64,000 bases of DNA from a virus (lineage: Duplodnaviria; Caudoviricetes), in IMG/VR virus record IMGVR_UViG_3300041964_000148, one strand, 5' to 3'. Below are positions 2,474-53,858 of this stretch, in pieces. The translations under genes were made by a program, and so were the position numbers. Position 1 is the stretch's first letter. Each line of letters starts with the position of its first letter. The notes below the pieces were generated by a model. It made no database searches, was not told the DNA's origin, and was given only the letters and a program-made list of their open reading frames with translations.

Positions 2474-2887
2474 CTAGATAAGTCCATTAGCCTTACAATA
2501 CGCCCAATAGGGATGACTCTTCTCGGCTATTTTCTTTTCGATAATCGCTGCCCACTCGTGTTCATTCATCAATTTACACGCCTCATTGGTATTGCTCTTA
2601 TAAAGATCTGAGAATGGTATTTCTACATACCGATCTCGTTCATCGGGGTCTATCTCGCCTCCTTTGTACTTAAAGAGGTGCTTGTTTGGCTCAACAGAGA
2701 TTCCATAAAAGCTATAGCCCTTAACCAAGTCTTGCCATCGGTCAGGATAGCGAAGGAATAGGTAAGACACAAGATATTCCCATGTGTGGATACCTTCAAG
2801 TGACTCAAACGGGGGACATCGGTAGTCTTCTTGTGGAAATATGACCGCATCTTTTTCTTCGTTGACCTCAAACTCCACAAGAAGCAA
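2474..2887 (-). pseudogene. Probable 3' half of a phage gene interrupted by the integrated plasmid (5' half at 6250-6597)
   Basis: No convincing start (TAG 4 codons upstream); joins in frame to 6250-6597 at a 10/12-bp direct repeat. Confidence 0.55.
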
Positions 2888-3209
2888 GGCGGAGGGCTAG
2901 CGAAAAGCCCTGGTGACCCCAGAAATGCACGAGAGGGGATACCCCTCTCAGGACTCTCCCCGCGCCAGTTTTTCCGAACGGCTCTCCAGGTATTTAGGCA
3001 AGATTGGGAGGAATCATCGTCGAGCCGTTCCGATCGTTTCACTAAAACTGGCTTAACTACCGTGTAATACACGAGCAATCAACATAGTTCTGTTGTAGGC
3101 TACATTAAGTGCGACCGCGTTAAGCTGCAATAGCTAAAAACTCTTTAATACCTATTTTAAGAACACACTAGGGCTATTTATCAAGTTATGATAGAAGCAC
3201 AGAAAAACG

Positions 3210-3278
3210 TGGACGGTAGGAGAATTGAACTCCCCAGGGATAGCTGTCAAGACCTCCGCTGGTAACCATACACCGCCC
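3210..3278 (-). ncRNA. tRNA-like element (degenerate D and anticodon arms)
   Basis: 7-bp acceptor stem GGGCGGT/ACCGTCC plus discriminator A; T-arm GGGAG-TTCAATT-CTCCT; only 69 nt. Confidence 0.5.
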
Positions 3279-3283
3279 ATGTT

Positions 3284-3321
3284 TAACTAAGCGACAGCAA
3301 TCGATTGCTGTCGCTTAGTTA
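3284..3321. repeat. Perfect 38-bp palindrome
   Basis: TAACTAAGCGACAGCAATC|GATTGCTGTCGCTTAGTTA, no spacer. Confidence 0.9.
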
Positions 3322-3494
3322 TTAGATTTTTGGAATATTGAACAAACTGTGTAAACGACAAACTGAACCAGGGTCCAAGTTTATTTTCTCGCTTGTCTGA
3401 CAAATGTCTATTGCAATTTCCTTATCCCCAAATTAGCGCAACTTTTCCTAGATTGCAAGTAAAAATCCTTTTGTTACAATGCCAAAATTAATAA

Positions 3495-3830
3495 TTATCT
3501 AGGTATTTTTAAGTAATTCAATAAAGCTTCTAGCGCCCGCTTGACTGCACCTTTGTCTTTGCCTTTTCTAGTTATTTCTGAGTTATTTACAATCGATTCA
3601 GCGGCTGCAATTAACTGATTAAAATTAAGAGAATCAGTAGTCAATGCCTCTTGATCAAAAGCTCCATTTTGAGCCATTTGCTCAATTAAGTCTGCTTTTG
3701 TAATCTGCTGTATCTCTGCTGCATAGCCTATCTTTTCCCAAGTTTCATCTGTTAGACGAATACTTCTAACATGGCGATAATCCTGTGACTTAGGAGCAAA
3801 TTGTCCACTTTCTGTTCTATCTTGATTCAT
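3495..3830 (-). CDS. Ribbon-helix-helix (CopG-like) protein
   Basis: GQFAPKS..RHVRSIRLTDETWEKI...ITKADLIE; start overlaps the rep stop; paralog at 46641. Confidence 0.65.
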   Translation of the reverse strand: MNQDRTESGQFAPKSQDYRHVRSIRLTDETWEKIGYAAEIQQITKADLIEQMAQNGAFDQEALTTDSLNFNQLIAAAESIVNNSEITRKGKDKGAVKRALEALLNYLKIPR

Positions 3831-4876
3831 TAGTTTAGTGCCGTGTAATACACGGTTTGTAGTATTTCAAAGTAACTTTTTTTGTGGCGCTGCCATTCAA
3901 AGTAGAGATGCCCTTCATCAATAGAGTCTTCATCGCTGTTTTTTCCTACCAAGTCTTCTGGCTCTTGTTCTAAGGCTTTTAGGTAAGACCGTAAAACGCC
4001 GCCAACTGCTACAGTCTTGGTATTATGTAACTGCCGACTTAATTCTAAAAAGAACTCGCGGTTATATATCATGTCAGACTCTTTCACCTGATATTTTAAT
4101 ATCTCAGGGACAATCTTAATTGGATTGTGTTTCTTATGAATTGCTTTAACATGACACCTTGGATAATAATCCAACCGAGCGCATTGTTTCCAAAGCTCAA
4201 CCCACTTCTCTTGAGAAAGGTAGCTAGCCCCAAAGTAACTAGGAGGAACCATGAGTAGGCAATGGAAATGAGGATGTGCATTACCATCTTTGCCATGCGT
4301 CACTTCTACAGATTTAATCCAACCATCAGCAGGATAAATCTTAAGCTGGGTCAGACGCTGGAATGCTTGGTTCATTGACTTGAGAGTTTCCCTTAGTTCG
4401 GTAACAGGGCAATTCTTAATTGTTAGAGTTAAGAACAGCCAGCGGTGCTTAGGAAAGTCTTTTACTACCCTCGGAATGATTTTATAAGCTTTAGCCTTCC
4501 ACATCATTGAGCGCCGCCATTGGCAAACACAACAATGTCTGACTCTACAAAATCTAGCTGATGACAGTTTTAGTTTGAGAACTCCTTCTTCAAGATCTGG
4601 TGTTAATTTAAAATCTAACAACTCAGAGCAAAAGTGAATCCTCTTTGCATAATCGTCAAATTCAGTTCCTCTATAATGGGTTGCAATTTTATCGCTGTTA
4701 GCTCGATGTTCGTCCCATACTTTATCTCTTTCTGATAGATCAGATAAACGTGCTGCTTCTGTGGGCTGGACAGATTCGCCTGTTAGAGGTAAATTGAGGA
4801 TGTAGCTCTGGTCTGTTTCATGCCCAGACACAAAAAAGCCCCCCTGGTATCTAATTGGTTGTGTGGTAACTCCCAA
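3830..4876 (-). CDS. rep: Rolling-circle replication initiator, Rep_1 (pC194/pUB110) family
   Basis: CxxRxCxxCxWRRS Zn region, motif I FLTLT, HUH motif HPHFHCLL, motif III EILKYQVK; start codon uncertain. Confidence 0.9.
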   Translation of the reverse strand: MGVTTQPIRYQGGFFVSGHETDQSYILNLPLTGESVQPTEAARLSDLSERDKVWDEHRANSDKIATHYRGTEFDDYAKRIHFCSELLDFKLTPDLEEGVLKLKLSSARFCRVRHCCVCQWRRSMMWKAKAYKIIPRVVKDFPKHRWLFLTLTIKNCPVTELRETLKSMNQAFQRLTQLKIYPADGWIKSVEVTHGKDGNAHPHFHCLLMVPPSYFGASYLSQEKWVELWKQCARLDYYPRCHVKAIHKKHNPIKIVPEILKYQVKESDMIYNREFFLELSRQLHNTKTVAVGGVLRSYLKALEQEPEDLVGKNSDEDSIDEGHLYFEWQRHKKSYFEILQTVYYTALN

Positions 4877-4940
4877 TCTACCAGGGGGTTTTAATTTTTG
4901 TCAATTGACAAAGACGTTAAAACTATTAAATTTGAGCATT

Positions 4941-5273
4941 TCAGTCATTGTAATGAAATCTACATTGCAAAAGCTCAATTTTGCCCTTGTCAACTTTATA
5001 CACAAATCGATTAGCTTCATCAATTTTTCTTGACCATAAACCAGAACCTTCATGTCTTAAAGCTTCTGGCTTACCTATTCCTTCAAAAGGGTTTTTCAAT
5101 GTGCTTTCAATCAAGTCCAAAATTTTTTTTAAAGTTTTAGAGTCTTGACGTGACCAGTATTGGCACTGTTCTAAAAACTTTGGAGTTAAAACAAGCTCAA
5201 AAGTTGTTTTTTCTTTAGCTAGTTGAGTAGAGGTAGAAGCTTCTTTTTGAGATTCATTCTTCTTCTTCTTCAA
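4941..5273 (-). CDS. yoeB: Txe/YoeB family toxin
   Basis: YWS.QD.K..KKI..LI....NPFEGIGKPEAL...GLWSRKID..NR.VY...CRFHY; start may lie downstream. Confidence 0.85.
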   Translation of the reverse strand: MKKKKNESQKEASTSTQLAKEKTTFELVLTPKFLEQCQYWSRQDSKTLKKILDLIESTLKNPFEGIGKPEALRHEGSGLWSRKIDEANRFVYKVDKGKIELLQCRFHYND

Positions 5274-6597
5274 AGCCTAGCTCCTCACGCAATTCATCTA
5301 ATGTCATTGCCCGTCCTTTTCCTTCTTCTATTTCTTGCAATGCAGACTTTAAGATAATTGCATTCTTTTCTGAAAGATTAAAAAGATAATCTGTTTCATC
5401 AATGCCACCTATATCTTCTCTGTCTTTATCTCTTGCAGCAGCGCCGAACACAGAATAAGCAAACCGATGAGCCAATCTTACATAGTCGTTGTGTGATTTG
5501 ATTGTGTTTAATAGTAAGGTATTAAACGCATCCTCTTCAAAAGGCTCATTTAGTAAAAGTTCACTGTTCTTAATTTCTCCAGAAGCTAGCTCTGCCTCAA
5601 CTTTAAAAAGAACTCCATTTTTTTTCTCTTCTGGACTTAATTCAAGTTCGGCTTTTTGAAGCTTTTTTTCGATGATAGCTTGAGCCTTAAGAACAAACTC
5701 TTGACGCATTTTTATTGGGCAATAAGCCCAGTATTGTTCAACAACCTCCAAAAGCAATTCATAACCTCGTACAGTTAATGAATAAGCTTTTGCAATCTCA
5801 TCTATAAAGCGTATAGCGTCAGAAGCAGTGGGATTTGTAAATTGTAAAACTTTATTACTGCTTTGATTAATTTGATTACCTAATTGCTTGAACAAATAAG
5901 AAGCAATTTTTACTTTGCTATCCAAAATTAAGAGGATGGCATCTACCTCTAGCTTGCTTCTGCCTTTTGCTGCTGCTAGTTCAGCTTTAAAATCATGCTG
6001 TGCTCCTTCTGAACATTCAAAAATGAGGCAGCTTTCCAAATCAACAAATACAACGTCTTCAATGCCTTTCACACGTTGTTCCTCTATAAACAGACAGTAA
6101 ATTGGTAGCTTAGTATGCGCTCTTGCCCGATATGCACTTCTATATCCTTGCACAGCCTTCTCTAATGCGATCGAAAGCCACCCGATCGCCACACCACCAA
6201 CTGCCCCAACAACCAGCAACTGCAACCAGTCTGGAGCCAAAAGCAGCAGCTCCAGTCCTGCCAGCGAGAACATCTTTGTTTCGCTAGGTTTTGCAGTTCT
6301 TTTATATTCATTTTCGTCTGTATCCCATACAGTGAGCGAGTTGCACTGATGCTGACGCATCAGAGAACTCCCTAAGTATTCGAGGTCATCATCACTTACT
6401 AACTGTTCTGCAATGGTCTTCAGAAACAACCAAAACCATTTTGGTTCCTCATCCTCGGCGTAATGGTAAGGGGACAGGGAACGGAAGAAGTCAAGTGCAA
6501 CCTGCAATCCTTCTTCGTCGCCTGACCAGAATGATTTGATATGGTTTTCATCAATCTGAACAGACTTGATCAACTTAACGGCGATGGATTTTGTCAT
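5254..6597 (-). CDS. Chimeric ORF: phage gene N-terminus fused to a plasmid protein with a TM segment and YefM-like antitoxin tail
   Basis: C-terminal ETDYLFNLSEKNAIILKSALQEIEEG directly upstream of yoeB; ATG 6597 follows the AAAGCAAAATC leader; hydrophobic stretch after the junction. Confidence 0.55.
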   Translation of the reverse strand: MTKSIAVKLIKSVQIDENHIKSFWSGDEEGLQVALDFFRSLSPYHYAEDEEPKWFWLFLKTIAEQLVSDDDLEYLGSSLMRQHQCNSLTVWDTDENEYKRTAKPSETKMFSLAGLELLLLAPDWLQLLVVGAVGGVAIGWLSIALEKAVQGYRSAYRARAHTKLPIYCLFIEEQRVKGIEDVVFVDLESCLIFECSEGAQHDFKAELAAAKGRSKLEVDAILLILDSKVKIASYLFKQLGNQINQSSNKVLQFTNPTASDAIRFIDEIAKAYSLTVRGYELLLEVVEQYWAYCPIKMRQEFVLKAQAIIEKKLQKAELELSPEEKKNGVLFKVEAELASGEIKNSELLLNEPFEEDAFNTLLLNTIKSHNDYVRLAHRFAYSVFGAAARDKDREDIGGIDETDYLFNLSEKNAIILKSALQEIEEGKGRAMTLDELREELGFEEEEE

Positions 6598-6725
6598 GAT
6601 TTTGCTTTGCGTGTACATATTACTATGTTATCACATTCAATCCACCGAGATTAATGGTGAAAGATAGCGATCGCGTTCTTTATAACAAAGGTAAAATAAC
6701 ATCAGTAAATACAATCTTAATTTTC

Positions 6726-12882: not shown

Positions 12883-14124
12883 ATGACCACTACACGAAAG
12901 AAAGACGCTTTCCCCACAGGGACAGCTTTGCCTGTGTTTTATCGGACATATAGCCGTGGGGGAAAGGAGTCTTGGTGGGACGTTTGTATTCGTTGCGTGG
13001 AGGGACTTGTTACGCTATCGGCAGGACACCTAAAAAAAGAAGAGCGATCGCTTCTTCTTAATTACGCACGAGAAATCAAAGCCCTGCCTTCCGGTCGCTG
13101 GCTTTGGGTTGGCGGCAAGCCTTGGGTAGAAAACCCTAAGAATTTCTCTGGGGCATATAACTGCACGAGCATCAATGTTAAGGCTTATGAGGATCAGTCT
13201 CCTTGGGCAGCCTTTGGCTGGCTTATGGAATTAGGGATGATGGGATGCGGCACCGGTGCCGTACTAGAACCAAAATACATTGACACTCTCCCACCTATTT
13301 GTAATATCCTCCAGACTAATATCCTGGGAGAGCCGGGGGAAGTTCACCCAAATGAGCGGCTAGAGGATACGGAATTTACTGTAAACCGAAACACGCTTTA
13401 TATCCTGGTGGGGGATTCGCGGGAAGCGTGGGTGGCAGCATACCAAATTATGTTAGAAGCGGCTTCTAACCCTAACCTGGGGCGGGAGCTGTTTGTCAAC
13501 ATCTATTTGGGCAACGTGCGCCCCTATGGTGAACAGCTCCAAGGTTTTGGAGGGGTCGCTAATCCAGCCAAGTTGGGTTGGATGTTTGGCGCGATCGCCG
13601 ACGTTACTAATCAAGCGGTTGGGCGACAAATGAATTCTTTAGAATGCTGTATGGCGATCGATATTGCAGCAGAGAATACTGTTGCCGGAAATGTTCGACG
13701 TTCTGCTGGGATGCGGCAAGGGAAGTACGACGATCCTAATTTTGTTGATGCCAAACTGGGGTTATATCTCCAAGATGAGGCTGGGGATTGGTATTTACCT
13801 GATGCTAGAAAGTCGGTTTTGAGAATTGCTAATCACACCCGCGTCTTCCACCACAAACCTACCTTAGAAGAGATCCAGGAAGCTGTTGCCAAGCAGTATT
13901 TCTCTGGGGAAGGGGCAATTATGTGGGCGGGAGAGGCAGTATATCGGTGCAATCGCGACTTAATTAGTGAAGGCGATCGCTCGACATTCCTGTATCTCTA
14001 TAATTTGGGCATAGAACGCGCCGAGGAGTTTTTAGCTGTTGCTTATCTTCGCTACCACGGTGTACCGTGTTCCGACGAGGAGCTGGAGCATCGAATGGAA
14101 AGATATGGGACAAATCCGTGTGGT
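12883..14124 (+). CDS. nrdJ: Class II (AdoCbl-dependent) ribonucleoside-triphosphate reductase, exon 1
   Basis: VFYRTYSR, PSGRWLWVGG, GAYNCTS, AGNVRRSA, ANHTRVF; ends NPCG. Confidence 0.92.
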
Positions 14125-15189
14125 AAATGATTTTGCCTCACGTTAAAAACCTGGCAAAATCGGTGAAGACTGAGATGTTAACGCCGAGGTAATCAGAGGA
14201 ATTAAAGAGCTTCTGACACCGTAGAGAGTAGAGATTGAACCTAATCCCATCAAGGATAAGACTAGAAAATCTCCACGAGTGCCGGGGCATAGAGCATGGG
14301 TCTATGCAAAACGTACTCCGAACTACATTTTTTGTGGTAGCCCTGATATGATTTTAATGCAAAATCTTGAGGAGCTAATCAATGAAAAATGCGCCATACA
14401 TGGATAAAGAACACCTCAGTTCATTGATAGCTTTAGGTATGACTGCTTCCGAGATAGGTAAACAATATGGTGTTCATAGAGGGACAATCGACTACTGGTG
14501 TAGTAAATTCTCTTTGACTATTTATAAGCAACATGGTCAAAAAAGGATTTATACGTTCGATGAAACTTTTTTCACTTGTATTGACTCAGAAGAAAAAGCA
14601 TACATCTTGGGCTTCATTATGGCTGATGGATTTATTGAAAGCAGTGGCAGAGCGCTCACTATTACCCTAAACAAACGAGACGCTGATTTACTTGAGAAGA
14701 TTAAACAGTGTCTTAAGGCAAATATACCGTTAGCTATCAAAGGAAAGGAAAAGCAGTTCAGGGCTTTAACATTCTGCTCCAAAAGAATTGTGGCAGATCT
14801 TGCACACTTTTCAATTGCAAGAAATAAAACAAAAACCTTGAAGTTCCCTGACTTAGCTAGCCGTCTATATTCCCATTTCTTGCGTGGCTATTTTGATGGA
14901 GATGGACATATAGGCTACCGACAATGTGCCTTAACTGTAGGAAGCGCGAGTTTTCTAGAGGGTTTGTTGAACTTTCTTTGGGAATCGCACGGTTTTAGAC
15001 CGTGGATAGGGAATAGAACAACGTACTATCATTTACAATTCAATAAAAAACAGTCTCCATTTATCAACTGGCTGTACGCCGACGCTAGGATTTACTTGGC
15101 TCGAAAGTATGAGAGGTTTGATACATATTGGCGCAGCGAACATGAAGCTGTAGAACTAGAGGATAAAGAGCCTTTAGGGTAACAAAATG
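14125..15189 (+). ncRNA. Group I self-splicing intron (1065 nt)
   Basis: 5' exon ends in U (GGT) pairing with GCC of P1; IGS AATGATTT complementary to 3' exon AAATCATT (P10); P7 GAGTA/TACTC; terminal G; splicing restores NPCG|EIIG. Confidence 0.9.
14382..15182 (+). CDS. Intron-encoded LAGLIDADG homing endonuclease with N-terminal HTH
   Basis: Two motifs AYILGFIMADG and HFLRGYFDGDG; GAGGAG SD. Confidence 0.88.
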   Translation: MKNAPYMDKEHLSSLIALGMTASEIGKQYGVHRGTIDYWCSKFSLTIYKQHGQKRIYTFDETFFTCIDSEEKAYILGFIMADGFIESSGRALTITLNKRDADLLEKIKQCLKANIPLAIKGKEKQFRALTFCSKRIVADLAHFSIARNKTKTLKFPDLASRLYSHFLRGYFDGDGHIGYRQCALTVGSASFLEGLLNFLWESHGFRPWIGNRTTYYHLQFNKKQSPFINWLYADARIYLARKYERFDTYWRSEHEAVELEDKEPLG

Positions 15190-16323
15190 GAAATCATTGG
15201 CTCCAATTTTCACTGCAACTTATCGGAGGTTCATCTCAATCAAATTGACCCGCACAACTTAAAAGAGCAGGAGGAGGCGTTTACGGTAGGGGCATTAAGC
15301 GTGGCGATACTTCTGCAACACAAGTTCCCAAGTCCTGTCTACCAGCGATCGCGTGAATTAGATCCTATCGTTGGCGTTTCCTGTACCGGGATGTTCGACT
15401 TTTTCGTTAAGCGTTTTGGGTATCGCTGGCTGGAGTGGTGGGAAGCTGGGCGACCAAGACAGTGGGGCAATGAAGTTATGTCACCGTCTCCTGGAGAAAA
15501 TTTCAGTCAATCAACAGTCAATGAATTTGAACATGAATCTGAGTACTTTATTGCTTATGAATCTTGGTATCTAAATTGGTGGCGAGGGATTGTTGAAACT
15601 AAGGTGTGGGAGTATTGCGATCGCAGTAATCTTAAGCGCCCAAATCGCTGCACAACTCTCCAACCTAGTGGGACAAAATCTCTTCTAACCGGGGCATCTC
15701 CCGGCTGGCATCCACCTAAGGGGCAGAGGTTCATTCGTCGGATAACGTGCGATCGGAATGACCCTGTTGCTCTAGCTTGTTTGGACTATGGCTATAAGGT
15801 GGTGCCGGCTCAAGGGGATAAGGATGAAAACGGCTATCTTCTTAACGACCCATTTGACCCCCGCTGTACAGAGTGGTTGGTAGAGATCCCCTGCGAGGTT
15901 TCTTGGGCAAATATGCCTGGGGTTGAAGATATTGATGTTAGTCGATTTAGCGCCCTAGCCCAAATTGATTTCTATATGCAGGTGCAAACGCATTATGTTC
16001 GACATAACACCAGCGCGACTATTGAGCTACGTGAGGAGGAAATTGAGTCTGTAGCCCAGCGAATTTATCAAGCAATCCAAAATGACGAGGGGTATATTTC
16101 CGCCTGCCTCTCAGCCCGATTTGACGCTCACGAGGCATTCCCCAGGTTGCCGTTTGAGCCTATCGACAAGGCGACGTATGAGCAGATGGTGAGGGACGTG
16201 GAAGAGCGACGCATTGTAGAGGATTTCCATGAGGCGTTGGCGAAGCGCCAGGAGGAATCGGCTTATATTCGTAGTTCATCGGGTCCGGCTGGGTGTGATA
16301 GCGACAAGTGCTTGATGTCGTAG
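15190..16323 (+). CDS. nrdJ: Class II RNR, exon 2
   Basis: FHCNLSEVHL, CTTLQPSGTKSLLTGASPGWHP, HNTSATIE, C-terminal GCDSDKC. Confidence 0.92.
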   Translation, partial: EIIGSNFHCNLSEVHLNQIDPHNLKEQEEAFTVGALSVAILLQHKFPSPVYQRSRELDPIVGVSCTGMFDFFVKRFGYRWLEWWEAGRPRQWGNEVMSPSPGENFSQSTVNEFEHESEYFIAYESWYLNWWRGIVETKVWEYCDRSNLKRPNRCTTLQPSGTKSLLTGASPGWHPPKGQRFIRRITCDRNDPVALACLDYGYKVVPAQGDKDENGYLLNDPFDPRCTEWLVEIPCEVSWANMPGVEDIDVSRFSALAQIDFYMQVQTHYVRHNTSATIELREEEIESVAQRIYQAIQNDEGYISACLSARFDAHEAFPRLPFEPIDKATYEQMVRDVEERRIVEDFHEALAKRQEESAYIRSSSGPAGCDSDKCLMS

Positions 16324-31400: not shown

Positions 31401-32654
31401 TTACGGCTCAGGCAGTTTCTGACGCTTCTTTTCCCACGCTTGCTGAAAGCCTCCACAATGTTTAGTTGTGGGTTTTTCAGTAGAGGCTTGAGATCCACGT
31501 TTGTCGAGCGTCGTTCCAACGCCCGTTGCCCATATTAGGCAAACTTTAGCTGAGGCTACATCTCTGTCTTCGACACAGCCGCAAGGACATTGATGTAGTC
31601 GTTCAGCCAGTGTTTTAGGTTTGACTTGCCAGCAGTCAGGACATCGTTGAGAAGGCTTGAGTGTCTTAGTTGGAGCTTTCAGAAATACCCCATCAGCTTC
31701 ACCTAATTTGTACTCCAGCATTCCCCCCAAAATTCCCCAACCTACATCCAAAATGGAGCGGTTTAGCCCAGACTTCTGTCGCTTCCGCTTTCCCTTCTTG
31801 GCTTTTTTAGTCATCCCCTTGATGTTGAGTTTCTCTGTCACGACCATGCTGTTACTGCTTACTATCTGTGTCGTGACCTGATGCGCCCAGTCTTGACGTT
31901 GATTAGTCGCTTTGCGCTGCAACTTATTGACTTTAGACTGAGCTTTTTTCCAGCGTTTTGATCCCTTAATCTTTTTCTTGAAATTGGGGCTACGTTTCCG
32001 ACGCTTCTGTTTAGATGCCGCTCTGATTTTCTCTTGAGTTGCACCCAAGAAGCGAGGATTTTCTATTTTGGTTCCATCGCTACAAGCGACGGCTGTTAGA
32101 GTGCCAAAATCAATGCCAATTGCACCCGTTCCGGTTTCTCGGACTGGCTCACATTTGACGGTGATTGAGGCATACCATTTGCCTTGTCGGTACACGATGG
32201 TGCAAGTTGTTGGGATTCCCCAAGTTCTTGCCTTTCCTCTCATCTGAATTTGCCCTAAGTTAGACAGTTCCAGATAGCCGTTGTCACCCGTGGTGTGTGC
32301 TTTCCAACCAGGTGCCGCTGGGTAAGTCCATCCACTATAACGACGAATTGACTTGAATCGGGGGTATCCTCCCAAGCCTTTGAAGAACCGCTCGTAAGCC
32401 ATGTCAACCCGTTTAAGGGTAGCCTGTAGGGCTTGGCTTCCTAGCTCTTTGTACTCTGTCCAGACCGTCTTGAACTCAGGTAATGAGTTTTGTTGGTCGT
32501 AGTAGGTAACTGATTTCCCAAAACGTTGATATTGCGTCTTCTTGTTGTACAGCGCTGCATTATAAAGGTCTTTATGTAAACGCCTCCAATAGCTCAACTT
32601 TTGGGCTTGAGCAATGGAAGGATAAAGACGAAAGGTGCAACGACGGGTTATCAT
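31401..32654 (-). CDS. tnpB: RNA-guided endonuclease TnpB
   Basis: FRLYP HTH, RuvC D (GIDFG), E (VTEKL), D (DRDVAS), CPDC..CPCG. Confidence 0.92.
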   Translation of the reverse strand: MITRRCTFRLYPSIAQAQKLSYWRRLHKDLYNAALYNKKTQYQRFGKSVTYYDQQNSLPEFKTVWTEYKELGSQALQATLKRVDMAYERFFKGLGGYPRFKSIRRYSGWTYPAAPGWKAHTTGDNGYLELSNLGQIQMRGKARTWGIPTTCTIVYRQGKWYASITVKCEPVRETGTGAIGIDFGTLTAVACSDGTKIENPRFLGATQEKIRAASKQKRRKRSPNFKKKIKGSKRWKKAQSKVNKLQRKATNQRQDWAHQVTTQIVSSNSMVVTEKLNIKGMTKKAKKGKRKRQKSGLNRSILDVGWGILGGMLEYKLGEADGVFLKAPTKTLKPSQRCPDCWQVKPKTLAERLHQCPCGCVEDRDVASAKVCLIWATGVGTTLDKRGSQASTEKPTTKHCGGFQQAWEKKRQKLPEP

Positions 32655-52398: not shown

Positions 52399-53858
52399 CG
52401 TACTCCCTCGGCTGAAGCACGAGGGATTCTCAAAGGATGTTACGAGGCAGGCTGAAGCCGTGCCTCTCCACCCTTTTTCCTGCTTCGCAGACTCTTAACT
52501 AGACCGTTGCCAGTCCCCGTCAGACCGTCTCCACAGGCAATTTCTTCCACGCTGCGTCCCAGCGCAGAGATCCCTCTATTGCGGATCACTTGTGCTGCTG
52601 CCACATCCCGATGGGTTGTGTAGCCGCATTCAGGACAAGCATGAAGCCTGTCGCTTAGTTCTTTCTTTCCGGTATGCGTATCGCATTGAGGACACACTTG
52701 CGAGGTGTAATCCTTATTCACCTTATCGAAGTAAACACCCCGTTTCCAGCACACCCATTGCAGAATTGAAACGAACTGTCCAAATCCAGCATCAAGGGTA
52801 TGTTTACCAAGCATCCCTTTTGCCCAAGTGCGGAAGTTGATATCCTCAACAAACAGCATTCCAGCTTCGTCACAAAGTTTGTGAGCCAACTTGAAATGCC
52901 AGTCTTTACGAGTGTCCGCAATGCGCTGGTGCAATCGTGCAATTTTCCGAGTGAGCCTGTGCCGATTATTTGAGCCTTTCTGCTTGTGCTTCAGCCTGCG
53001 TTGCAGCAATGTCAGCTTGCGTTGCAGTTCTTGAAGGAAACGAGGGCGTTCAATCAGCGCTCCATCAGACGTTGCAGCAAATTTGTCTAACCCTAAATCA
53101 ATCCCCCTCGGATGCCCACTAGGGACAGGATCAGGTATATTTACATCACATTCAAGCGTGAACATCAGGAAGTACCCCGAAGCCTTACGAACCACCCGAA
53201 CCTGCTTCACGATAAAGCCGTCCGGGATGTCGCGAGACTTGACGTATTCCACCCACCCCAACTGTGGCAATTTGATTTGACTCCCCTTCAAGAATTGAGA
53301 CTTACCCAACTGCGGATACACAAATGAGCGCATCCGATATCGGTTCTTGAATCGGGGAAACCCCAGACCTTTGCGCTTCATGTCGATAAAAGCGGTTTCC
53401 AGCTTTCTCAGAACTTGCTGCAACACCTGAGCATTCACAGTTTTAAGTTCTCTTAATTGCTCTTTTGCCAGTGTTAGAGACTTGGCTTGAGCGTTGTAGT
53501 TAGGGTAAGGTTCATCAGCCGAGATGATGTACTCAGAAATGATGGAGCAAGCATTTACCGGACATTTACGAGAATTAATCCAGTCTTTGCGTTCACGTAA
53601 AGCAAAGTTCCAGACTTTTCGACACACCATTAAAGTGTGTTCGATTAGCTGGACTTGCTCATCTGTCGGCATTGCTTTGTACTCGTAAGTTAGGGTTAAC
53701 ACTGCTTTCACCTCCTTCTACAAATCATACCCTAGCTTTGTAGAAGTTGAGACAAAGCGTAAATACTCTTACGATTAAACCCGGACAAACAGAGGGCTAA
53801 AGCCCTGAGTTAGCTTTCATCCCCCGGTTGAAACGCGGGGGTTCTCAGCATCTTTTCG
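52395..53858 (-). mobile_element. IS200/IS605-family (tnpB-only) element
   Basis: Left end after TTTAT (53859-53863) with hairpin 53821-53841; right-end hairpin 52404-52426 ending TCAA. Confidence 0.85.
52440..53711 (-). CDS. tnpB: RNA-guided endonuclease TnpB
   Basis: GIDLG, VEDI, TSQVCPQC...CPEC, HRDVAAA. Confidence 0.92.
   Translation of the reverse strand: MKAVLTLTYEYKAMPTDEQVQLIEHTLMVCRKVWNFALRERKDWINSRKCPVNACSIISEYIISADEPYPNYNAQAKSLTLAKEQLRELKTVNAQVLQQVLRKLETAFIDMKRKGLGFPRFKNRYRMRSFVYPQLGKSQFLKGSQIKLPQLGWVEYVKSRDIPDGFIVKQVRVVRKASGYFLMFTLECDVNIPDPVPSGHPRGIDLGLDKFAATSDGALIERPRFLQELQRKLTLLQRRLKHKQKGSNNRHRLTRKIARLHQRIADTRKDWHFKLAHKLCDEAGMLFVEDINFRTWAKGMLGKHTLDAGFGQFVSILQWVCWKRGVYFDKVNKDYTSQVCPQCDTHTGKKELSDRLHACPECGYTTHRDVAAAQVIRNRGISALGRSVEEIACGDGLTGTGNGLVKSLRSRKKGGEARLQPAS

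What the first reader, a model, noticed from the sequence alone, without database searches (positions are those of the whole stretch)
2474..6597. A 3.36-kb rolling-circle plasmid appears to have integrated into a phage gene, splitting it in frame
Seen: rep, RHH, yoeB and antitoxin lie in an AT-richer block bounded on the minus strand by TGCTGCTTTTGG (6248-6237) and TGCTTCTTGTGG (2886-2875), 10/12 identical and in the same codon phase. Removing the 3362 bp joins MTKSIAVK...MFSLAGLE to LLLVEFEVNEEK...KANGLI, one 253-aa ORF with the phage leader. No integrase is present. Inference: microhomology cointegration of a free plasmid, possibly a hitchhiker kept by its TA module.
Basis: partly seen in the sequence, partly recalled or inferred. 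Interest (0 to 1): 0.7.

Follow-up and report, generated by a model that had tools for sequence, protein, structure and literature searches.

The report
Rolling-circle plasmid inserted in phage gene
A 3.5-kb rolling-circle plasmid with a toxin-antitoxin pair lies inside a gene of a large phage-like genome, opened exactly at its probable replication nick site; a sister plasmid occurs both free and inserted the same way elsewhere, which suggests the plasmid's own replication protein pastes it into other DNA as an IS91-type transposon would.

Summary
The core of the finding holds; the junctions, size and mechanism do not.

**What is there**
- A Rep_1 (pC194/pUB110-type) plasmid is integrated on the minus strand. 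It carries a membrane-anchored antitoxin-tail protein, YoeB, Rep and a small RHH-like ORF.
- Relatives place the boundaries at 6380 and 2878 (4-nt ambiguity). The insert is 3503 bp, not 3362 bp.
- Joining the two ends rebuilds ...CCGCCTTGCTTCTTG|AATACTTAGGGAG. Free relatives carry this sequence uninterrupted (L004, and L016, a closed 5589-bp circle).

**Support**
- The flanks join in frame to a 214-aa ORFan (...SDDD-L-VEFEV...). No intact copy exists in the protein databases searched.
- The integrated form is identical in at least 9 contigs from several samples and assemblers, so it is not a chimera.
- A second, independent event: the L016 plasmid is inserted in L015, opened at the same nucleotide. 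There the split host gene matches intact homologs seamlessly, with no duplication and no deletion.

**Mechanism (inferred)**
The bases 5' of AATAC are CTTG, GTTC or CTCG. These are the IS91-family tetranucleotides. I infer that the HUH Rep inserts the plasmid by strand transfer at its nick site.

Other first-stage notes of this scan cover the same stretch.

The parts
6381..6618 (-). 5' part of the interrupted host (phage-like) gene: 78 codons plus the first base(s) of the junction codon. Start is ATG 6618 or ATG 6597.
   Evidence: ORF list. Its only homolog is P0014, residues 82-157, E about 1e-6 to 2e-17. Plasmid homology begins abruptly at 6384/6380.
2878..6380 (-). Integrated rolling-circle plasmid, 3503 bp. 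It runs from 5'-AATACTTAGGGAG (6380) to ...CCGCCTTGCTTCTTG-3' (2878). Each boundary can slide by up to 4 nt because CTCG (6384-6381) resembles CTTG (2881-2878).
   Evidence: The joined ends equal the uninterrupted sequence of free relatives L004 (1 mismatch) and L016. GC is 39.5% against 45%. 80% DNA identity to L005 over 4907-3173, 93% to L002.
6335..6384 (-). Probable double-strand origin: nick-like site CT(C/T)G^AATACTTAGGGAG followed by an inverted repeat (stem about 6373-6335).
   Evidence: AATACTTAGGGA is invariant in every relative, with a sharp break of homology just 5' of it. The hairpin folds with z -3.5. Its sequence differs in the window, L005 and L004 but it still pairs.
5254..6273 (-). 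Plasmid gene for a 339-aa protein: N-terminal transmembrane helix, helical middle, C-terminal antitoxin-like tail. In the integrated state the frame is open upstream to the host ATG, giving the 454-aa fusion ORF 5254-6618.
   Evidence: Homologs P0004, P0012 and P0013 start at query residues 119-120. Substitutions avoid codon position 2 only downstream of ATG 6273; the leader shows 16/14/16 and so looks non-coding. Tail: RelB-like E 0.0043 and complex model.
4941..5273 (-). YoeB/Txe-type toxin gene, overlapping the end of the antitoxin-tail gene. The true start is uncertain; the domain begins at residue 30.
   Evidence: PF06769 E 2.2e-29; TIGR02116 E 1.1e-23.
3830..4876 (-). rep, a Rep_1 (pC194/pUB110-family) HUH initiator, full length. 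Gene callers use a 333-aa start.
   Evidence: PF01446 E 1.8e-80 over profile positions 2-253 of 253. HPHFH and EILKY motifs are visible in the translation. 92% aa identity to the Rep of free plasmid L016; 61-64% to Planktothrix and Crinalium plasmid Reps. Promoter-like TTGACA-18-TAGATT at 4904-4875.
3495..3830 (-). 111-aa ORF after rep, conserved in all relatives.
   Evidence: No Pfam, NCBIfam or PHROG hit better than E 0.0099. A 111- to 113-aa ORF follows rep in L004, L005, L015 and L016.
2878..3321 (-). Non-coding, structured end of the plasmid: perfect 19+19 palindrome (3284-3321), tRNA-like element (3210-3278), a CTTGATA (3179-3185) that is not conserved, a 156-nt element shared with L003/L005 (2918-3073), and the pre-nick sequence CTCCGCCTTGCTTCTTG (2894-2878). 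Candidate single-strand origin region.
2474..2877 (-). 3' part of the interrupted host gene (134 codons). It has no start codon of its own: the GTG and TTG used by gene callers are made wholly or partly of plasmid bases.
   Evidence: The database holds only the truncated 134/137-aa form. A terminator-like hairpin follows at 2408-2442.

Best explanation
A small pC194-type (Rep_1) rolling-circle plasmid of a cyanobacterial lineage was linearised at one defined phosphodiester bond: CTTG^AATAC, immediately 5' of a conserved AATACTTAGGGA box and an inverted repeat. I take this site to be its double-strand origin. The unit-length plasmid was inserted into a protein-coding gene of a phage-like replicon of at least 245 kb, at the host sequence ...GATGATGACCTCG^TGGAGTTTGAG. 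No target duplication is seen and, by analogy with the sister event, no loss of host bases; here the gene simply rejoins in frame. The gene was split after about codon 79. The most likely agent is the plasmid's own HUH Rep: bound to the 5' end at the nick, it transferred the displaced single strand to a nick-site look-alike (CTCG) in single-stranded phage DNA, as IS91-family transposases do. Shown: the boundaries, the reconstructed circle junction, reproducibility across assemblies, the in-frame rejoining, and a second independent and precise insertion by a sister plasmid. Inferred: that the site is the origin, that Rep did the cutting and joining, and that the intact rep and YoeB/antitoxin genes are still active and help retain the insert.
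For: (1) Boundaries. Plasmid homology starts at 6384/6380 in every relative, whatever lies upstream. The window's right end ...CCGCCTTGCTTCTTG plus its left start AATACTTAGGGAG equals the uninterrupted sequence of L004 (1 mismatch) and of L016, a contig with a 141-nt terminal overlap and hence a 5589-bp circle. (2) Not an artefact. L006-L014 are 99.98-100% identical to the window and come from JGI, ENA and Logan assemblies of different samples; 8 of them span the left junction and 5 span the right one. (3) Split gene. The flanks are on one strand and join in frame. The 3' piece has no start codon of its own. The 5' piece's only homolog ends its domain at the junction. (4) Second event. L015 carries the L016 plasmid (99.9% identity) opened at the same bond. 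Its rejoined 350-aa host gene aligns without a gap to intact homologs P0040-P0043 (PVV|REIACH against PVT|REIVCH), and the right flank alone scores E 6e-23. (5) Nick-site character. The conserved box is followed by an inverted repeat that differs in sequence but still pairs in three lineages; pC194-family origins have such a variable Rep-binding repeat (PMC5037232). The four bases 5' of AATAC are CTTG, GTTC, CTCG, GTGA, TTGA or TTTA, always with T at position 2. IS91-family elements insert without duplication at CTTG/GTTC, less often CTCG, also always with T at position 2 (PMC13181058). (6) Rep is full length with HUH and E-x3-Y motifs. The catalytic Tyr and Glu of pC194 RepA are spaced the same way (PMC5703833).
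Against: No nicking or strand transfer was measured, and the site is called the origin by likeness only. The box was not found in more distant cyanobacterial Rep_1 plasmids. A classical CTTGATA lies elsewhere in the insert (3179-3185), though it is not conserved in L005. pC194-type Reps have one catalytic tyrosine whereas IS91 transposases have two, so the chemistry of a complete insertion is not established for this family. For the window's own gene there is no intact homolog and no empty site in any database. The sole homolog adds only 3 bits across the join. A small host deletion at the insertion cannot be excluded. L015 and L005 carry an extra 36-nt partial copy at the left junction that simple unit-length transfer does not explain.
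Confidence: 0.6

Rival explanations
1. Random illegitimate, microhomology-mediated cointegration of plasmid and phage DNA, with no role for a site-specific nuclease.
For: No integrase or transposase is in the insert. Only 2-4 nt of similarity (CTCG/CTTG) lie at the two junctions. Single-stranded plasmid intermediates are known to be recombinogenic (PMC5703833).
Against: Two independent insertions by plasmids that differ (about 82% DNA identity over rep and the 111-aa ORF; Rep 92% aa identity), into unrelated genes, open the circle at the identical bond. The L015 insertion is exact to the base, which is unusual for end joining.
Confidence: 0.13
2. The same plasmid site is cut and joined by a host- or phage-encoded enzyme acting in trans, for example an IS200/IS605-type Y1 HUH transposase that recognises subterminal hairpins, or a Xer-type recombinase at a plasmid resolution site.
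For: A hairpin lies 8-12 nt from the break. IS605-family TnpB genes are in the window at 31401-32654 and 52440-53711. Insertion without duplication next to a short specific sequence also fits IS200/IS605.
Against: No TnpA (Y1) gene was seen among the ORFs profiled. Nothing shows a matching right-end hairpin conserved between the window and L016. Xer-type exchange needs a shared core in the target and leaves it at both junctions; the targets GACCTCG^TGGAG and GTGGTTC^GCGAG share no core with the plasmid site. The flanking tetranucleotides fit a pC194/IS91-type HUH enzyme, and the plasmid encodes one.
Confidence: 0.15
3. The flanks are not halves of one gene. Either two neighbouring host genes were truncated by an insertion that also deleted DNA, or the phage acquired the plasmid module by recombination together with foreign flanking DNA.
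For: No intact homolog of the joined 214-aa protein exists in 1.8 billion representatives or 5.8 billion clusters. P0014 resembles only the 5' piece and ends 9 residues after the junction; the join adds only 3 bits.
Against: Same strand and in-frame join at boundaries fixed independently by plasmid homology. The 3' piece is coding right up to the junction with no start, ribosome-binding site or intergenic DNA. The sister event is a precise split of a single gene.
Confidence: 0.1
4. Assembly chimera between a phage contig and a co-occurring plasmid.
For: Related plasmids are abundant in the same communities, and some contigs break inside the insert at about 4533 and at the palindrome.
Against: Both junctions are spanned identically in contigs from different samples and three assembly pipelines. 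The junctions are not repeats shared with other plasmids.
Confidence: 0.02

Closest known systems
IS91-family rolling-circle transposons (IS91, IS801, IS1294)
   Same: An HUH enzyme. Insertion without target duplication. The fixed element end is joined 3' of a tetranucleotide CTTG/GTTC (also CTCG) with T at position 2. Subterminal palindromes lie next to the cleavage site. Single-stranded circular intermediates (PMC13181058, compared).
   Different: Here the mobile unit is a whole autonomously replicating plasmid with a single site acting as both start and end, not an element with distinct oriIS and terIS. The enzyme is a Rep_1 initiator (PF01446), not the two-tyrosine IS91 transposase. Transposition was not demonstrated.
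pC194/pUB110-family rolling-circle plasmids, including small cyanobacterial ones (Synechocystis pCA2.4/pCB2.4, Planktothrix PLAM_p, Crinalium pCRI9333.08)
   Same: Rep_1 initiator with HUH and Glu/Tyr motifs, small size, nick-like CTTG^A site with an adjacent inverted repeat, structured region upstream, abrupt cassette junctions between relatives (PMC5703833, PMC5037232). From my own knowledge: the pC194 nick site was shown in the 1980s by Michel and Ehrlich to be a hot spot of illegitimate recombination.
   Different: The plasmid is found integrated, at unit length and exactly at the nick-like site, in a phage-like genome in nature. Its nick box (CTTG^AATACTTAGGGA) differs from the classical CTTGATA. 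It carries a YoeB module with an unusual membrane-anchored antitoxin.
YefM-YoeB / Axe-Txe type II toxin-antitoxin modules
   Same: A YoeB-family toxin gene overlaps the end of an upstream gene whose C-terminal about 45 residues are predicted to wrap the toxin.
   Different: The upstream protein is 339 aa with a transmembrane helix and a long helical region instead of the Phd/YefM DNA-binding domain. There is no Pfam or PDB sequence match. Relatives share the leader and membrane anchor but pair with different downstream genes of 135 or 123 aa.
DSO-gene-SSO cassette mobilisation between staphylococcal rolling-circle plasmids (qacC, lnuA)
   Same: Sequence identity between relatives breaks at or near the nick site, and modules bounded by nick-site copies move between plasmids. 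L003 and L005 contain several AATAC-bounded units (PMC5037232).
   Different: That model relies on homologous recombination into another rolling-circle plasmid. Here the recipient is an unrelated gene of a large phage-like genome.

Membership tests
pC194/pUB110-family (Rep_1) rolling-circle plasmid | Rep_1 initiator domain, full length | tested here: met
   PF01446 E 1.8e-80, profile positions 2-253 of 253.
pC194/pUB110-family (Rep_1) rolling-circle plasmid | HUH metal-binding motif and catalytic Glu-x3-Tyr | tested here: met
   HPHFH and EILKY read directly in the translation. Spacing as for pC194 RepA Glu210/Tyr214 (PMC5703833). Not aligned residue by residue to pC194.
pC194/pUB110-family (Rep_1) rolling-circle plasmid | Double-strand origin with a CTTG^A-type nick site and adjacent Rep-binding repeat | tested here: inconclusive
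   CTTG^AATACTTAGGGA plus a hairpin is conserved in the close family but not found in distant relatives. No nicking data.
pC194/pUB110-family (Rep_1) rolling-circle plasmid | Existence as a free circle with single-stranded intermediates | tested here: inconclusive
   Free circles exist for relatives: L016 closed, L004 nearly closed. No free copy of the window's own plasmid was found. Single-stranded DNA is not testable here.
IS91-family rolling-circle transposon | Two-tyrosine HUH transposase of the IS91 type | tested here: not met
   The only HUH protein is Rep_1. Pfam lists no IS91-type transposase domain.
IS91-family rolling-circle transposon | Insertion without target-site duplication, 3' of CTTG/GTTC/CTCG | tested here: met
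   L015: exact to the codon, target GTTC^. Window: CTCG^, in-frame rejoin. Compare PMC13181058.
IS91-family rolling-circle transposon | Distinct oriIS and terIS ends | tested here: not met
   Both ends of the insert derive from one continuous site in the circle.
YefM/Phd-YoeB type II toxin-antitoxin pair | YoeB-family toxin | tested here: met
   PF06769 E 2.2e-29; TIGR02116 E 1.1e-23, above cut-off.
YefM/Phd-YoeB type II toxin-antitoxin pair | Phd/YefM antitoxin domain in the upstream protein | tested here: not met
   No Pfam hit, no PDB sequence hit. Only a sub-threshold RelB-like match to the last about 30 residues.
YefM/Phd-YoeB type II toxin-antitoxin pair | Antitoxin tail binds the toxin | tested here: inconclusive
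   Complex model score 0.62, best control 0.00. The mark was reached by 58 of 80 solved complexes and 2 of 110 mismatched pairs. Runs share at least 81% of contacts; partner pLDDT at least 57. The pass may come from likeness to solved YefM-YoeB structures.
Integrase-mediated integrative element or prophage-like island | Tyrosine or serine recombinase and an att core repeated at both junctions | tested here: not met
   No recombinase among the insert's ORFs. No shared core at the junctions.

The most novel reading that the evidence does not exclude
Ordinary pC194-type (Rep_1) plasmids of cyanobacteria act in nature as transposons of themselves. Their replication initiator inserts the unit-length plasmid, precisely and without duplication, next to CTTG/GTTC/CTCG tetranucleotides in other replicons, including phage genomes that can then carry the plasmid between cells. 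This would be a living intermediate between rolling-circle plasmids and IS91/Helitron-type transposons.
Probability: 0.4. Interest if true: 0.75.

Novelty: new variant of a known kind. Interest (0 to 1): 0.6.

Why it matters
Rolling-circle plasmids, IS91-like elements and Helitrons are thought to share ancestry through their HUH enzymes. Natural cases in which a replicating plasmid behaves like such a transposon are scarce. Here two independent, base-precise insertions by sister plasmids are opened at the same bond, and one has its free circle on record. Together they give a concrete, testable system: one Rep, one about 50-nt site, defined targets. The case also shows a route by which a non-mobilisable plasmid and its toxin-antitoxin module can ride in a large phage genome, and how such an insertion creates fusion reading frames that mislead gene callers (454 aa here, 577 aa in L015). 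For annotation, the "chimeric antitoxin" and the "134-aa hypothetical protein" are products of this insertion.

Tried and rejected
- **Longer homologs of the 3' piece:** none. The near-length search found only the truncated protein itself. IMG/VR scan: nothing.
- **Exact-pattern scans for the predicted empty site:** Metagenome contigs and viral contigs gave nothing.
- **Exact-pattern scans for the element start:** Metagenome contigs, viral contigs and genome contigs gave nothing. These collections do not even return the window's own contigs, so the blanks carry no weight.
- **No G000 genome is held**.
- **P0014 as a bridge across the join:** the alignment does extend through my junction (...DD-L-VEFEV against ...DD-T-VEFEI), but the gain is only 3 bits, because the plasmid's first residues (LEY) resemble VEF. 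I therefore treat it as weak.
- **CTTGATA at 3179-3185 as the origin:** rejected as the main candidate. It is not conserved in L005 and neither junction lies there.
- **Nick box in distant cyanobacterial Rep_1 plasmids:** not found.
- **Rfam:** nothing above threshold.
- **PDB sequence search with the antitoxin tail:** nothing.
- **L023 as a simple circle:** rejected. Its ends are only 82% identical, so it is two related units in tandem.
- **Translated leader (6380-6274):** rejected. Substitutions are spread evenly over codon positions.
- **Phage and plasmid DNA searches with the whole block:** only rep and yoeB matches in plasmids, none in phages. The terminase-like protein has no tblastn match in the phage collection.

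Full report
**What is in the sequence**

On the minus strand between 6618 and 2474 lie, in order:
- a 454-aa ORF (5254-6618);
- a YoeB toxin gene (4941-5273; PF06769 E 2.2e-29);
- rep (3830-4876; Pfam Rep_1 E 1.8e-80, full profile);
- a 111-aa ORF (3495-3830) with no family match;
- about 600 nt without ORFs;
- a 137-aa ORF (2474-2887) with no family match.

The block is AT-richer than its surroundings: 39.5% GC against about 45%. At the DNA level rep resembles small cyanobacterial rolling-circle plasmids from Planktothrix, Crinalium and Synechocystis (pCA2.4). At the protein level identity is 61-64% to the first two and 49% to pCA2.4.

A search of 1.8 billion representative proteins with the 454-aa ORF found homologs that run straight across the proposed junction at residue 124. 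P0001 aligns to residues 98-454 and P0002 to 74-454. Others (P0004, P0012, P0013) begin at residues 119-120.

So 6248-6237 lies inside a plasmid gene, whose real start is most likely ATG 6273 (MFSLAGLELLLLAPDW..., a transmembrane helix). Downstream of that ATG, substitutions against relatives avoid codon position 2. Upstream they are spread evenly (16/14/16), so the 107-nt leader is not coding.

A 10/12 match between two 400-nt end regions is expected by chance: 6 observed, 6.0 in shuffles.

**The real boundaries**

DNA comparison with related plasmid contigs (L002-L005, L015, L016, L021-L030) gives two fixed points.
- **Left side.** Homology starts abruptly at 6384/6380, at (CTCG)AATACTTAGGGAGTTCTCTG, whatever lies upstream in each relative.
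- **Right side.** Homology runs to ...CTCCGCCTTGCTTCTTG, ending at 2878.

In free relatives the two ends are contiguous.
- L016 has a 141-nt terminal overlap and is therefore a closed 5589-bp circle. It reads ...CTCCGCCTTGCCTTG|AATACTTAGGGAG.
- L004 starts and ends inside rep with about 14 codons missing, so it covers nearly a whole circle of about 3.2 kb. Its gene order matches the window's insert. It reads ...CCGCCTTGCTCCTTG|AATACTTAGGGA.
- Joining the window's ends reproduces the L004 sequence with one mismatch.

The insert is therefore 6380..2878, or 3503 bp. Each boundary can slide by 4 nt because CTCG (6384-6381) resembles CTTG (2881-2878).

**Is a gene split?**

With these boundaries, which were fixed without reference to reading frames, the flanks join in frame...GAT GAT GAC CTC G|TG GAG TTT GAG, read as ...SDDD-L-VEFEV.... 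The product is 214 aa, or 207 aa from the second ATG.

The 3' piece is coding right up to the junction and has no start codon of its own. The TTG and GTG used by gene callers are built wholly or partly from plasmid bases.

The 5' piece has a single homolog, P0014. Its matching domain ends at the junction (...GDD-T-VEFEI-PND*). The join improves that alignment by only 3 bits, so I count it as weak support.

No uninterrupted version exists among the proteins searched, so the gene is an ORFan. I put the split-gene reading at about 0.85.

**Not an assembly artefact**

L006-L014 are 99.98-100% identical to the window. They come from JGI, ENA (megahit) and Logan assemblies of different samples; the longest contigs on record that carry these proteins are 243-245 kb. 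Eight of them span the left junction and five span the right junction. No empty-site variant turned up.

The pattern scans for an empty site were uninformative, because the scanned collections do not return even the window's own contigs.

**The host replicon**

It looks like a large phage.
- A terminase large-subunit homolog (phrog_675, E 2.5e-14) lies about 6 kb beyond the window's start.
- Endolysin-like and GH19 genes, a split class II ribonucleotide reductase, methyltransferases and a queuine-tRNA-ribosyltransferase-like gene are nearby.
- There is no match to any phage in the reference collection.

I did not examine structural genes myself.

**A second, cleaner event**

The L016 plasmid is also found integrated, at 99.9% identity, in a 40-kb contig (L015). 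It is opened at the same bond.
- Left junction: host ...CCTGTGGTTC|AATACTTAGGG...
- Right junction...CCGCCTTGCCTTG|GCGAGATTG... host.

The flanking host ORF rejoins in frame to 350 aa. It aligns without any gap to four intact homologs of 371-393 aa: PVV|REIACH against PVT|REIVCH. The right flank alone scores E 6e-23.

That insertion is therefore exact to the base, with no duplication and no deletion. It also creates a read-through fusion ORF (P0016, 577 aa), like the 454-aa ORF here. The only irregularity is a 36-nt partial copy of the start of the element at the left junction. L005 has the same feature.

**Mechanism**

Two different plasmids were cut at the identical bond and inserted into unrelated genes. 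Over the rep and 111-aa-ORF segment they are about 82% identical at the DNA level; their Reps are 92% identical at the protein level. This argues against random end joining.

The site has the anatomy of a pC194-family double-strand origin.
- It has a conserved nick-like box (CTTG^A...).
- The box is followed by an inverted repeat whose sequence differs in the window, L005 and L004 lineages but still pairs. This fits the description of a variable Rep-binding repeat in that family (PMC5037232).
- A highly structured region lies just upstream in the circle, where single-strand origins usually sit.

The four bases joined to the fixed AATAC end are:

| Tetranucleotide | Where |
|---|---|
| CTTG | native circles L016 and L004 |
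| GTTC | L015 host; a plasmid lineage seen in seven loci |
| CTCG | window host; L005 |
| GTGA | the 36-nt duplication |
| TTGA | L021 |
| TTTA | L003, L021 |

T is at position 2 every time. IS91-family elements use an HUH enzyme and leave no duplication. They insert at CTTG or GTTC, less often CTCG, also always with T at position 2 (PMC13181058).

The plasmid's Rep is full length and has the HUH and Glu-x3-Tyr motifs (PMC5703833).

My best reading (0.55-0.6) is this: Rep, attached to the 5' end at the nick, transferred the displaced strand to a look-alike site in single-stranded phage DNA. None of this chemistry has been measured. The rivals are a trans-acting hairpin-specific enzyme, random illegitimate recombination and a non-split gene; they are scored in their own section.

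**The cargo**

The tail of the 339-aa protein gives only a sub-threshold RelB-like match (E 0.0043) and no PDB sequence match.

A complex model places its last about 45 residues on YoeB. The score is 0.62 against a best control of 0.00. The mark was reached by 58 of 80 solved complexes and by 2 of 110 mismatched pairs. The runs share at least 81% of contacts, and the partner's pLDDT is at least 57. Because YefM-YoeB structures are solved, this shows likeness rather than binding.

Relatives share the leader and membrane anchor but have different middles and different downstream partners.

It remains untested.

**Verdict**

- The thing is real: a unit-length Rep_1 plasmid inserted at its nick-like site into a gene of a phage-like genome.
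- It is a new variant of known kinds (rolling-circle plasmids, HUH-mediated insertion), not a new category.
- Its value lies in the matched free and integrated pair and in the IS91-like target signature, which make a Rep-as-transposase hypothesis directly testable.

Noticed in passing
window 3210-3278 (-): A tRNA/tmRNA-like element (acceptor-like stem plus a T-arm with GTTCAAT loop). It is 100% identical between the window and L005, while the surrounding plasmid DNA is only about 80% identical. The neighbouring palindrome has changed on both arms. Rfam gives only a weak tmRNA match (11.5 bits, E 0.13). Possibly part of the single-strand origin.
   Followed up: partly
L015:4120-4155 and L005:161-196: A 36-nt partial copy of the element start (AATAC...CGTGA, ending inside the hairpin's 3' arm) sits directly in front of the full copy at two different left junctions. 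Simple unit-length insertion does not explain it. It could be a second aberrant strand transfer.
   Followed up: partly
window 5254-6618 and L015:3315-5048: In both independent insertions the plasmid lies in the same orientation and reading frame as the target gene, so a host-plasmid fusion ORF (454 aa, 577 aa) runs through the non-coding leader into the antitoxin-tail gene. The chance expectation is about 1 in 36. It could reflect selection for antitoxin expression from the host promoter.
   Followed up: partly
L005/L022 (9.5 kb), L003, L023: These plasmid contigs contain two or more units, each beginning with the AATACTTAGGGA box (for example L005 at 197 and 6553; L003 at 2765 and 3967). They look like head-to-tail cointegrates or cassette arrays of related plasmids joined at the nick-like site.
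   Followed up: partly
P0001-P0004, P0009-P0011, P0016 (relatives of window 5254-6273): A family of plasmid proteins shares a conserved leader and transmembrane N-terminus, but the middle and C-terminal parts are unrelated. They are followed by different small genes (YoeB, or 135-aa or 123-aa ORFs). This suggests a modular, membrane-anchored antitoxin scaffold paired with different toxins.
   Followed up: no
window about 4533-4539 and about 1410: Several independent contigs end at these points (L013 at 4533; L008 and L010 at 1410). The 93%-identical relative L002 loses similarity at 4539, inside rep. This indicates co-occurring variants that share only part of the sequence.
   Followed up: no
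window 12883-16323 (+): A class II ribonucleotide reductase is split into two ORFs (12883-14130 and 15187-16323). Between them lies a 266-aa ORF (14382-15182) that has a faint LAGLIDADG match in the precomputed annotations. This is presumably an intron or intein with a homing endonuclease.
   Followed up: no
L001 (2092 nt, Logan SRR27231841): The only homolog of the interrupted gene's 5' domain (P0014) lies on a small contig with a 27-nt terminal direct overlap, so it may be a circle of about 2.07 kb. It comes from the same sample as plasmid L004.
   Followed up: no
window 31401-32654 (-) and 52440-53711 (-): Two TnpB/OrfB_IS605-type genes are present; no adjacent TnpA was seen, though the neighbouring ORFs were not profiled.
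   Followed up: no
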